A stretch of DNA of 41,128 bases, from positions 1 through 41,128 of IMG/VR virus record IMGVR_UViG_2718217884_000003, one strand, 5' to 3'. The notes beneath the pieces were generated by a model. The model did not search any database. It was given only the letters and a program-made list of their open reading frames with translations, and was not told the origin of the DNA. Positions 34,324 to 35,205 of the stretch are shown here, piece after piece. A program made the position numbers and the translations under genes. Numbering within the stretch: position 1 is the first letter of the stretch; each line of letters opens with the position of its first letter. The stretch comes from a virus. Taxonomy: Duplodnaviria > Heunggongvirae > Uroviricota > Caudoviricetes.

Positions 34324-34335
34324 TGAGGTGGGGCC

Positions 34336-34680
34336 GTGAGACATTTACTTTGCACTGTTACCGTGTTCGCGGTGCTTATATCAGCACCCGCTTTTGCGGA
34401 TCAGCAATGTGGTGATTTTAAAATCCATTGGGCAGATGATGGCTTAGCCAGAATCAATGGCGCAAAGCCAGAAATGCAAAAAATCACCTTCCTGAAAAAC
34501 AAAGGCGATTATAACAATATCAAGATGGATTGGCGTATGGCTACCGATCAGCCTGGAAGATGGGTTGGTCTTGAGTACATCAATCGAAACGGCAAGATAA
34601 TTCTCAATGCCCAGTGGCTGCAAGCCAGCATGAATGCGCCGCGTCAGTATGCAACATACGACTGCCGAAAAGTAAAATAG
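34336..34680 (+). CDS. Secreted hypothetical protein (moron) with signal peptide
   Basis: GTG start with RBS GAGGTGGGG; predicted signal peptide MRHLLCTVTVFAVLISAPAFA then DQQ; two Cys; AT-rich context. Confidence 0.6.
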   Translation: MRHLLCTVTVFAVLISAPAFADQQCGDFKIHWADDGLARINGAKPEMQKITFLKNKGDYNNIKMDWRMATDQPGRWVGLEYINRNGKIILNAQWLQASMNAPRQYATYDCRKVK

Positions 34681-34697
34681 CCCGCCAGATAGGCGGG
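34668..34697 (-). terminator. Rho-independent terminator for the DUF4236-like gene
   Basis: Hairpin CCCGCC-AGATA-GGCGGG followed on the minus strand by CTATTTTACTTTT. Confidence 0.5.
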
Positions 34698-34703
34698 CAT
34701 GCG

Positions 34704-34994
34704 TCAAAAATATTGAGCTTTAATTATAATAAACACAATAATTACGAACAGGATGTTTCTAATTATTTTTTGCTTGTGAGTAAGTTGTTTTTTTTCTGTC
34801 GATTTTCCGGGAGAGTAAAGGTTAGTGGTATGCGACAGCCCCGTGCCGGGAAGGCCATTTGTCATCTTTACGCCTTTTTTCCCGATGTTAATGGTGGAAC
34901 CTTTACCACCAATCGAAGTGCTTACTCCGCTTTTGCTTATGTTGATCGCGAGTCCGGGCGCAATCCGGATTCTTTTGCGAAATCTAAATCCCAT
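34704..34994 (-). CDS. DUF4236-like protein with C-terminal transmembrane helix (moron)
   Basis: N-terminus MGFRFRKRIRIAPGLAINISKSGVSTSIGGKG matches the DUF4236 pattern as recalled; C-terminal hydrophobic FVIIVFIII; RBS CAGGAG. Confidence 0.6.
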   Translation of the reverse strand: MGFRFRKRIRIAPGLAINISKSGVSTSIGGKGSTINIGKKGVKMTNGLPGTGLSHTTNLYSPGKSTEKKQLTHKQKIIRNILFVIIVFIIIKAQYF

Positions 34995-35170
34995 TTGTTA
35001 CTCCTGTAGTCAAGAATGCGATGGTGCAGGTCCACTCTATGGCGGCTTCATGGCTGAAATTGATTTTTAATGCTTACTTGTTGCAAACATATCCTAATAC
35101 ACCTTGTGAATGTGTGCCATTGCAGCGGAAAAGCCTTACTTCACACTGATGTAGCTTAGTAATTGATACC

Positions 35171-35195
35171 AAACCAGCTTCGGCTGGTTTTTTTA
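35171..35195 (+). terminator. Rho-independent terminator upstream of baseplate spike gene
   Basis: Perfect stem AAACCAGC / GCTGGTTT with TTCG tetraloop, followed by T-run. Confidence 0.6.
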
Positions 35196-35205
35196 TGGGG
35201 TTTTT

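What the first reader, a model, noticed from the sequence alone, without database searches (positions are those of the whole stretch)
34324..35205. Convergent moron pair inserted inside the baseplate operon: secreted protein plus DUF4236-like membrane protein
Between the hub-like gene (ends 34323) and the spike gene (starts 35206) sits an AT-rich 880-bp insert. It contains a plus-strand gene for a signal-peptide-bearing 114-aa protein with two cysteines, and a convergent minus-strand gene for a DUF4236-like protein with a C-terminal TM segment. The minus-strand gene has its own RBS and terminator. A further perfect-stem terminator at 35171..35195 sits just before the spike gene. Independent transcription signals inside a late operon are typical of lysogenic-conversion cargo.
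Basis: partly seen in the sequence, partly recalled or inferred. Interest (0 to 1): 0.65.

Follow-up and report, generated by a model that had tools for sequence, protein, structure and literature searches.

The report
Accessory-gene hotspot inside a baseplate operon
Between two baseplate genes of an E. coli prophage lies a swap-in slot for accessory genes, here holding a small membrane protein of unknown function (DUF4236) next to a conserved exported protein; this is a familiar kind of phage "moron" site, but it gives a testable lead on an unstudied protein family.

Summary
Two real genes and two hairpin terminators lie in an AT-rich stretch (GC 0.44 against 0.54) between the hub and spike genes of a lambdoid E. 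coli S1 prophage.

The "convergent moron pair" reading is only half right. In 84 related loci the plus-strand gene (orfA) follows the hub in all but three. It is an exported 8-strand beta-barrel protein of family phrog_3443, close-packed against or overlapping the hub gene. It occurs as 23 deeply diverged allele groups and is a fixed anchor, not a recent insert.

The minus-strand DUF4236 gene is a separate 509-bp cassette (34679..35187). It is one of 24 alternative cargo configurations in the slot between orfA and a conserved terminator just before the spike gene. Other cargos include Phd-Doc, Arc plus antirepressor, and an EACC1-like protein. The cassette pairs with 10 orfA allele groups.

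Short DUF4236-plus-membrane-helix proteins recur next to tape-measure and tail-tip genes in unrelated prophages, and in defence-gene neighbourhoods. I infer, without direct proof, a prophage-expressed inner-membrane exclusion or abortive-infection protein analogous to HK97 gp15.

This is a new member of a known kind; interest is moderate.

The parts
33259..34323 (+). Baseplate hub gene; left conserved flank of the island
   Evidence: phrog_196 baseplate hub E=1e-82; weak PF22759 E217_GP41. 84-99% identical in the 80 IMG/VR loci, which were picked by similarity to this hub.
34336..34680 (+). orfA: exported 114-aa protein (signal peptide in codons 1-21, 34336..34398), predicted 8-strand beta-barrel with a conserved Cys pair. 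It is the conserved but highly allelic anchor gene of the island.
34679..35187 (.). DUF4236 cassette (509 bp): the exchangeable unit occupying the variable slot in this prophage
   Evidence: Homology to L003 (same orfA allele, different cargo) ends at 34678 and resumes at 35188. 96-100% identical wherever present. Found in 18 of 5426 complete E. coli genomes, one copy each, always in this slot. GC 0.428. No flanking direct or inverted repeats.
34672..34698 (-). Intrinsic terminator of orfB: 7-bp GC stem at 34680..34698, then UAUUUUAC on the minus strand. It overlaps the orfA stop codon.
   Evidence: dG -16.7 kcal/mol, z = -4.1, 0 of 200 shuffles as stable. The U-run is present only on the minus strand.
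34704..34994 (-). orfB: 96-aa DUF4236 protein. It has an N-terminal cationic Gly-rich beta-meander (residues 3-55 = 34830..34988) and a C-terminal transmembrane helix (residues 73-95 = 34710..34778).
   Evidence: PF14020, 73.6 bits against cut-off 27. AlphaFold2 pLDDT 81: six strands plus a helix. Residues 1-60 have 10 K/R and 0 D/E, pI 12. dN/dS 0.04.
34995..35170 (-). Upstream region of orfB. AGGAG ribosome-binding site at 35001..35005 (minus strand); the promoter is presumed to lie here but was not identified.
   Evidence: The ribosome-binding site and the TTGACTACAGGAG block are conserved even in Klebsiella phage GZ7. No sigma-70 consensus hit on the minus strand. A weak Rfam isrK match at 35122..35193 on the plus strand (17 bits against 50, E=0.51) was judged to be chance.
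35171..35194 (+). Plus-strand intrinsic terminator just before the spike ribosome-binding site: stem 35171..35190, seven T residues at 35188..35194. It is the conserved right boundary of the island.
   Evidence: dG -11.9 kcal/mol. A hairpin plus T-run occupies this position in 43 of 47 unique sequences, with at least 5 different stem sequences. This includes the cargo-less locus L088 and the distant phages SEN34, 683R1 and Mulock.
35206..35946 (+). Baseplate central spike gene (gpV-like); right conserved flank
   Evidence: PF18352 E=9e-42, PF18946 Apex E=3.5e-8.

Best explanation
The region is an accessory-gene diversity hotspot built into the baseplate operon of a family of lambdoid prophages with a SEN34-like contractile tail. 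It has three layers.

1. **orfA, the anchor.** orfA is an exported small beta-barrel protein encoded directly after the hub gene. It is almost always present but occurs as many old alleles.
2. **The variable slot.** The slot runs from the orfA stop codon to a T-run. Cargo is exchanged there by recombination in the conserved flanks.
3. **The conserved terminator.** An intrinsic terminator sits just before the spike gene. It stops transcripts that are not Q-antiterminated from running into the remaining baseplate genes. Q-modified late transcription should read through it.

In this window the slot holds a 509-bp cassette on the opposite strand. The cassette carries its own ribosome-binding site and terminator and presumably its own promoter. 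It encodes a tail-anchored inner-membrane protein with a strongly cationic DUF4236 beta-meander facing the cytoplasm.

The anatomy, cassette boundaries, independent assortment, coding status and predicted topology are shown. The function is inferred. The DUF4236 protein most likely acts from the prophage as a superinfection-exclusion or abortive-infection factor at the inner membrane, as the HK97 gp15 moron does. orfA most likely acts in the periplasm on phage entry or envelope events tied to this tail type.
For: **Locus structure.**
- 84 related loci show 24 cargo configurations. The hub-to-spike gap ranges from about 427 bp (orfA only, L088) to about 2483 bp.
- The cassette boundaries lie at 34678/34679 and 35187/35188.
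- DUF4236 is 96-100% identical across loci but pairs with 10 of 23 orfA allele groups.
- Other cargos are typical accessory or conflict genes: Phd-Doc, an EACC1-like protein, Arc with a P22-type antirepressor, and Bro-N with Rha.
- The terminator before the spike gene is present in 43 of 47 unique sequences, with at least 5 different stems.
- The phage encodes a Q antiterminator (PF06530, E=1e-25).
- orfA starts within 12 nt of the hub stop codon or overlaps it in 9 of 10 annotated relatives; SEN34 is annotated with a gap of about 110 nt.

**Function of DUF4236.**
- Four of 8 sampled short homologues lie inside tail operons of unrelated prophages. [quoted passage not shown] One is between the tape measure gene and gpM on the opposite strand. 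One is between gpK and gpJ.
- Two of 8 lie among defence genes: one next to type III CRISPR-Cas, one among restriction-modification, Abi_C and toxin-antitoxin genes.
- DUF4236 genes also lie in the tail modules of phages Pmp3, phiCD146 and GZ7.
- Predicted topology is N-terminus in, C-terminus out. The N-terminal domain carries 10 positive and 0 negative charges. Homologues include DUF4236-TM-SH3b and DUF4236-FtsK_gamma forms.
- Precedent: HK97 gp15 is a small inner-membrane exclusion protein encoded by a moron in the tail operon (PMC3594210).
Against: - There is no expression or phenotype evidence.
- No recognisable sigma-70 promoter was found for orfB.
- Neither protein matches any PADLOC model.
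- DUF4236 also occurs in large, probably virulent Klebsiella and Brevundimonas phages away from tail genes. A role limited to lysogens is therefore not required.
- The tail-operon association rests on a small sample (8 look-ups plus 4 phage records) that was not randomly drawn.
- Fold searches gave only generic beta-sheet or beta-barrel matches.
- orfA is packed against or overlaps the hub gene. This argues that it is a late-operon gene rather than a lysogen-expressed one, so the terminator might instead be an attenuator that tunes baseplate stoichiometry.
- DUF4236 presence shows no linkage to a particular spike allele. This argues against an allele-specific lock with the spike.
Confidence: 0.6

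Rival explanations
1. orfA and orfB form one co-functional convergent moron pair, acquired together and acting together, for example as a secreted factor plus its membrane partner in lysogenic conversion.
For: They are adjacent and both AT-rich. The same convergent arrangement occurs in the distant Klebsiella phage GZ7/Wanchaivirus (orfA 39% identical, DUF4236 51-62%) and in Hafnia prophages. DUF4236 is the commonest cargo, in 23 of 84 loci.
Against: The cassette is 96-100% identical yet pairs with 10 orfA allele groups. The window's own orfA allele group carries other cargo in 7 of 15 loci. orfA is present without DUF4236 in about 60 loci. Synonymous divergence is 1.3-1.7 among orfA alleles but 0.095 among DUF4236 copies, so their histories differ. 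The cassette boundary falls exactly at the orfA stop codon.
Confidence: 0.1
2. orfA, orfB or both are structural or assembly components of the baseplate, i.e. core genes rather than accessory genes.
For: orfA is syntenic in every related tail module, including distant ones, and is packed against or overlaps the hub gene. DUF4236 genes recur in tail operons.
Against: Every orfA family member has a Sec signal peptide or a lipobox, whereas tails assemble in the cytoplasm. In three loci orfA is replaced by an unrelated lipoprotein-like gene. orfB is absent from 61 of 84 loci that have near-identical baseplate genes. orfA is far more divergent (median 69%) than the structural genes around it (96-99%).
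Confidence: 0.07
3. orfB is a membrane toxin or lysis-timing factor (holin-like, or the toxin of a type I toxin-antitoxin-like addiction module). It would be kept in check by antisense transcription from the convergent orfA and late operon.
For: It is a small tail-anchored membrane protein. Plus-strand transcripts that pass the 34680-34698 hairpin, which has no U-run on that strand, would run antisense through orfB up to the terminator at 35171. Toxin-antitoxin cargo (Phd-Doc) occupies the same slot elsewhere.
Against: The phage already has a holin, an Rz spanin component and an ORF between them in the endolysin position (no Pfam match) at 16421-17668. At 96 aa with a 55-residue soluble domain, orfB is unlike type I toxins. 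No small-RNA family or promoter was found opposite it. The DUF4236 domain also occurs without a membrane helix, for example in phiCD146 and in the FtsK_gamma fusion.
Confidence: 0.12
4. The island genes are host-interaction factors (lysogenic conversion in the sense of virulence or envelope fitness, like lambda Lom and Bor), not anti-phage genes.
For: orfA and several alternative cargos are exported proteins. The host strains come from animal and human guts. Lambda lom and bor are classical late-region morons (PMC3594210).
Against: The identifiable cargos in the slot are phage-conflict or regulation genes: Doc, EACC1-like, antirepressors. DUF4236 homologues sit in defence neighbourhoods. No virulence-family match was found.
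Confidence: 0.11

Closest known systems
HK97 gene 15 moron (gp15 superinfection-exclusion protein; Cumby et al. 2012, reviewed in PMC3594210)
   Same: A small inner-membrane protein encoded by an add-on element inside the tail operon of a lambdoid prophage, next to tape-measure and tail-tip genes. It is AT-rich relative to its flanks and has its own terminator. [quoted passage not shown]
   Different: There is no sequence relationship: orfB matches only DUF4236, not the YebO family to which gp15 belongs (family assignment from PMC3594210). orfB is tail-anchored with a 55-residue cytoplasmic beta domain and lies on the opposite strand. Its exclusion activity is untested.
P2-like phage hotspots (Z/fun next to a baseplate gene; old/tin) and prophage defence hotspots (Rousset et al. 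2022; iLund4u preprint 10.1101/2024.10.15.618418)
   Same: A fixed position between conserved morphogenesis genes where many alternative accessory or defence cargos are exchanged among related prophages.
   Different: The phage family and position differ: this site is between the hub and spike genes of a SEN34-like tail. The island has a conserved exported anchor gene and a conserved terminator as fixed parts. Most cargos are single small genes of unknown function, not known defence systems (PADLOC found none for the two proteins here).
P22 immI region (ant, arc, mnt) embedded in the late operon
   Same: In two related loci (L021, L063) the slot holds Arc plus a P22-type antirepressor or Bro-N/Rha genes. 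This is the same kind of regulatory cargo placed among tail genes (the position of P22 immI is from established knowledge).
   Different: That cargo is not present in this window. Here the slot holds DUF4236.
Avidin / streptavidin family (comparison for orfA only)
   Different: The sequence match is not significant for a single avidin (E about 1). The disulfide partners differ. Conservation of biotin-contact residues was not established. Foldseek found nothing at E<=0.001. This is fold resemblance only.

Membership tests
Moron (Juhala/Hendrix definition as summarised in PMC3594210): orfB cassette | Extra DNA present in some genomes and absent from closely related ones | tested here: met
   Present in 23 of 84 related loci and replaced by other cargo or nothing in the rest. 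Exact boundaries at 34679 and 35187.
Moron: orfB cassette | Base composition differs from the surrounding genes | tested here: met
   GC 0.428 for the cassette (0.402 for orfB) against 0.54 in the flanks.
Moron: orfB cassette | Own terminator | tested here: met
   7-bp GC hairpin at 34680-34698 plus a U-run on the minus strand; dG -16.7 kcal/mol, z = -4.1.
Moron: orfB cassette | Own promoter | tested here: inconclusive
   No sigma-70 consensus hit on the minus strand in 34995-35300. The best candidate is 8 of 12 (TTGGAA-17-TAAAAA) and lies in the shared flank. A promoter is implied only because orfB is the only convincing minus-strand gene I see in the 18.8-41 kb late region (the other minus-strand ORFs all overlap plus-strand genes).
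Moron: orfB cassette | Expressed from the repressed prophage | not testable with these tools
   Needs RNA-seq or reporter assays in the E. coli S1 lysogen.
Moron: orfA | Extra DNA absent from closely related genomes | tested here: not met
   orfA is present in 82 of 85 loci and in distant relatives with hubs 56-64% identical. It should not be filed as a moron insert.
DUF4236 (Pfam PF14020): orfB | Match to the family HMM above the gathering threshold | tested here: met
   73.6 bits against 27, E=1.8e-20, profile positions 1-54 of 55.
phrog_3443: orfA | Full-length match to the PHROG profile | tested here: met
   E=3.1e-45, residues 2-114 on profile positions 2-114 of 115; function unknown.
HK97 gp15 / YebO-type exclusion proteins: orfB | Sequence homology to gp15/YebO | tested here: not met
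   The Pfam scan at E<=0.1 returns only DUF4236. The resemblance is in position and predicted membrane location, not in ancestry.
HK97 gp15-type exclusion proteins: orfB | Blocks DNA entry of superinfecting phage when expressed from the prophage | not testable with these tools
   Needs efficiency-of-plating and DNA-entry assays.
Known anti-phage defence systems (PADLOC-DB v2): orfA and orfB | Match to a defence-protein model | tested here: not met
   0 families at E<=1 for both proteins.
Avidin family: orfA | Significant sequence or structural homology, and the biotin-binding residues | tested here: inconclusive
Periplasmic lysozyme or transglycosylase inhibitors (MliC/PliC/Ivy): orfA | Match to a family profile or solved structure | tested here: not met

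The most novel reading that the evidence does not exclude
Short DUF4236-plus-membrane-helix proteins are a widespread, uncharacterised class of phage-encoded inner-membrane exclusion or abortive-infection factors. They are kept genetically linked to tape-measure and tail-tip genes because they act on tail-mediated DNA entry. On this reading the orfA family (phrog_3443) is a periplasmic avidin-fold protein that co-evolves with this tail type, for example by blocking the incoming tail tip or the transglycosylase domain of the tape measure protein. The hub-spike island would then be a two-layer (periplasm plus inner membrane) self-exclusion module.
Probability: 0.2. Interest if true: 0.65.

Novelty: new member of a known kind. 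Interest (0 to 1): 0.42.

Why it matters
Accessory-gene hotspots in prophages are a proven source of new anti-phage and host-interaction genes. This one has precise boundaries: an anchor-gene stop codon on the left and the T-run of a terminator on the right. It holds at least 24 cargo configurations, most with no known function, so it offers a compact catalogue for functional screening.

It also gives the first contextual lead for DUF4236. That Pfam family is found across bacteria and phages but is mentioned in only one paper in the searched library. Its short membrane-anchored form repeatedly sits beside tape-measure and tail-tip genes and in defence neighbourhoods. That makes an exclusion function directly testable with one plasmid and one phage.

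The conserved terminator before the spike gene, in a phage with a Q antiterminator, is a clean natural example of how a late operon can host separately transcribed cargo.

Tried and rejected
- **Rfam on 34200-35400.** The only hit was a weak isrK match (17 bits against a gathering score of 50, E=0.51). I rejected it as chance.
- **PADLOC and NCBIfam.** Nothing for either protein.
- **Profile searches against PDB sequences.** Sub-significant avidin hits for orfA and nothing for orfB.
- **Promoter scans**, including a relaxed scan of my own. No convincing promoter for orfB. One 9-of-12 site lies inside the 3' end of the hub gene upstream of orfA (34193-34221) and cannot be evaluated.
- **Repeat search around the cassette.** No target-site duplication or terminal inverted repeats, so there is no transposon signature.
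- **Pasteurella phage Pmp3.** I tested whether the 100-aa ORF after its hub is an orfA homologue. hhalign gave probability 0.1%, so I rejected it.
- **A dN/dS error.** The first calculation gave values above 1. That was my own one-base coordinate error and is corrected. The catalogue coordinates printed are 1 too low.
- **Exhaustive profile search for orfA relatives.** 57 representatives among 1.84 billion proteins, none carrying an informative domain.
- **Linkage of DUF4236 to a spike allele.** None was seen.
- **Type I toxin-antitoxin reading of orfB.** Considered and ranked low; see the rival explanations.
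Full report
**What the window is.** The window is 100% identical to part of the E. coli strain S1 chromosome (NZ_CP010226.1). It is a lambdoid temperate prophage. It encodes a CI-like repressor (HTH plus S24 peptidase), NinG, a Q antiterminator (15440..15958, PF06530, E=1e-25), a holin, an Rz spanin component and a small terminase subunit. It also encodes a tape measure protein with a C-terminal SLT transglycosylase domain.

From about 18.8 kb to the end of the window the credible genes are all on the plus strand. 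The tail is contractile and SEN34/Brunovirus-like, not SfV/Mu-like. Its genes include a Dit-like protein, a Pam3 gp18-type plug, an E217 gp41-type hub (33259..34323), a gpV-type spike (35206..35946), a wedge protein and Baseplate_J.

**Check of the observation.**
- orfA (34336..34680, plus strand, 114 aa) has a canonical Sec-type N-terminus ending A-F-A|D. Its mature part has two cysteines that are invariant in 40 homologues.
- orfB (34704..34994, minus strand, 96 aa) matches DUF4236 well above threshold (73.6 bits against 27). It ends in a hydrophobic helix.
- The region has GC 0.438 against 0.54 in the flanks. Only 0.5% of equal-sized windows in the late region are as AT-rich.
- The hairpin at 34680..34698 is very stable (z = -4.1) but has a U-run only on the minus strand. 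It is therefore orfB's terminator rather than a bidirectional one.
- The stem at 35171..35190 followed by seven T residues is a plus-strand terminator.
- Both ORFs are under purifying selection, with dN/dS 0.13 and 0.04. An earlier value above 1 was my own off-by-one error.
- The one element I could not confirm is a promoter for orfB.

**What the comparison with relatives shows.** I collected 13 annotated relatives from E. coli genomes and phage records. I added 80 IMG/VR loci chosen by hub similarity. I then dissected the hub-to-spike interval in each. Three layers emerge.

*Layer 1: orfA is conserved.* An orfA homologue follows the hub gene in 82 of 85 loci. It is also there in relatives whose hubs are only 56-64% identical: Salmonella SEN34, Klebsiella Mulock and ST405-OXA48phi1.2, Yersinia YP3, and E. 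coli vB_EcoM-683R1. In 9 of 10 annotated relatives it starts within 12 nt of the hub stop codon or overlaps it; SEN34 is annotated with a gap of about 110 nt. orfA is therefore not an insert.

orfA is, however, strikingly allelic. Median identity to the window is 69%, against 96-99% for the Dit-like protein, plug, hub, wedge and J proteins. There are 23 allele groups at 90% identity, and synonymous divergence between them is saturated (dS 1.3-1.7). In ten loci the mature domain is fused in frame behind an unrelated exported domain of about 200 aa. In three loci a lipoprotein-like gene replaces orfA.

*Layer 2: a variable slot.* The stretch between the orfA stop codon and the spike gene holds 24 different configurations. 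They range from nothing (L088, gap about 427 bp) to about 2.5 kb. Cargos include:
- DUF4236 (23 loci);
- two different small exported proteins;
- an EACC1-like protein;
- Phd-Doc;
- a membrane protein with a zinc-finger-like domain;
- Arc with a P22-type antirepressor;
- Bro-N with Rha;
- many proteins with no family match.

*Layer 3: a conserved terminator.* In 43 of 47 distinct sequences a GC-rich hairpin plus 6-8 T residues sits just before the spike ribosome-binding site. It uses at least five different stem sequences. The structure, not the sequence, is therefore what is kept.

**The DUF4236 cassette.** Alignment with a locus that has the same orfA allele but different cargo places the breakpoints at 34678/34679 and 35187/35188. 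The 509-bp unit contains the orfB terminator, orfB, its upstream region and the stem of the plus-strand terminator.

The cassette is 96-100% identical wherever it occurs, yet it sits beside 10 different orfA allele groups. The window's own orfA allele group carries other cargo in 7 of its 15 loci. In 5426 complete E. coli genomes the cassette occurs in 18, once each, and always in this slot. It has no flanking repeats. It therefore spreads by homologous recombination in the conserved flanks, not by transposition. The two genes are not a co-inherited pair.

**The proteins.**

*orfB.* The model (pLDDT 81) has a six-strand beta-meander and a C-terminal helix at residues 73-95. The first 60 residues have 10 K/R, no D/E and 11 Gly, giving pI 12. 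Homologues include DUF4236-TM-SH3b and DUF4236-FtsK_gamma architectures. Together with the positive-inside rule, this places the DUF4236 domain in the cytoplasm and the C-terminus outside.

**Lead on function.** DUF4236 is almost unstudied; one paper in the searched library mentions it. I looked up the genomic contexts of eight short DUF4236-plus-membrane-helix homologues.
- *Four lie inside tail operons.* One is in a Pseudomonas syringae lambda-like prophage between gpK and gpJ. One is in a Leclercia lambda-like prophage between the tape measure gene and gpM, on the opposite strand. One is in a Hafnia prophage, in the same hub-spike slot as here. [quoted passage not shown]
- *Two lie among defence genes.* One is next to type III CRISPR-Cas. 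The other is among restriction-modification, Abi_C and toxin-antitoxin genes near an integrase.
- *One lies next to an integrase, and one context is unclear*.

Phage records add Pasteurella Pmp3 (directly after the hub), C. difficile phiCD146 (just before the tape measure gene) and Klebsiella GZ7 (same slot, same orientation). In Acinetobacter Ab11510-phi the gene lies about 1.5 kb upstream of a 4.9-kb unannotated gene that may be the tape measure gene.

HK97 gp15 is the founding moron: a small inner-membrane protein in the tail operon that blocks DNA entry in a tail-dependent way (PMC3594210). By position, size and predicted location, orfB works most like that. There is no sequence relationship, and no experiment bears on it.

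**How the island probably works.** Late transcription depends on Q, so it should ignore intrinsic terminators. A terminator kept at one fixed place after orfA and its cargo therefore makes most sense as a stop for transcripts that are not antiterminated. These would be island transcripts made in the lysogen or early in infection. The terminator would keep them out of the spike, wedge and J genes. This step is inference.

An alternative is that the hairpin is an attenuator that sets baseplate stoichiometry. The close packing of orfA against the hub gene shows that orfA is at least also a late gene. orfB faces the other way, so it must have its own start site, which I could not locate.

The kind of feature is known, both as phage morons and as P2-like hotspots next to baseplate genes. 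I found no description of this particular hotspot, of the orfA family or of the positional habit of DUF4236 in my limited literature searches. The function assigned to orfB (exclusion or abortive infection at the inner membrane) is my best guess at roughly 35-40%. The locus architecture I hold at above 85%.

Noticed in passing
L005 2091..2916 region; L032, L037, L038, L042, L054, L061, L065, L066, L070 (e.g. L032 5069-5959): In ten related loci the mature orfA domain (residues 25-114) is fused in frame behind an unrelated exported domain of about 200 aa with no Pfam match, giving a 296-aa ORF. RefSeq annotates the L005 copy as an N-terminally truncated pseudogene. The exhaustive search found two such fusion types (P0201, and P0222 with a lipobox).
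   Followed up: partly
L047, L064, L073 (about 5007-5795): In three loci orfA is absent. A lipoprotein-like gene of 240-262 aa (lipobox FLTSC) takes its place directly after the hub; it has no family match.
   Followed up: no
L021 about 5450-7071; L063 about 5790-7472: The slot can hold P22 immI-like regulatory cargo: Arc (minus strand) with a P22_AR_N antirepressor, or Bro-N/P22_AR_C with Rha. L063 keeps the DUF4236-type terminator stem and about 25 nt upstream of it without the DUF4236 gene, which suggests nested replacement of cargo.
   Followed up: partly
window 35206..35946 and homologues: The spike gene itself is mosaic. Among loci with near-identical hub, wedge and J genes it falls into discrete identity classes (93-100%, about 70%, about 66%, 53-60%). 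These classes do not correlate with the orfA allele or with the cargo.
   Followed up: partly
L107 6001-6504 (Vibrio diabolicus chromosome): A 167-aa DUF4236-TM-SH3b form lies in what looks like an integron-style array of small same-strand cassettes (SnoaL, DUF4238, ankyrin, acetyltransferase, NgoFVII-type restriction enzyme). This is a non-phage context for the domain.
   Followed up: no
window 38700..39150 and 39450..40050: There are two further AT-rich dips (GC 0.40-0.42) in the distal tail-fibre region of the late operon. They were not examined and could be fibre-tip mosaic segments or more cargo.
   Followed up: no
window 34193..34221: A sigma-70-like site (TTTATA-17-TATACT, 9 of 12) lies inside the 3' end of the hub gene, about 115 bp upstream of orfA. 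It could drive lysogenic expression of orfA and plus-strand cargo, but coding constraint makes its conservation uninformative.
   Followed up: partly
L096 2974..4179 (Pasteurella phage Pmp3): A 401-aa protein with an N-terminal DUF4236 domain and a central TM2-like membrane segment lies on the same strand as the tail genes, two genes after the hub. In relatives of Pmp3 the DUF4236 gene lies next to a head maturation protease.
   Followed up: partly
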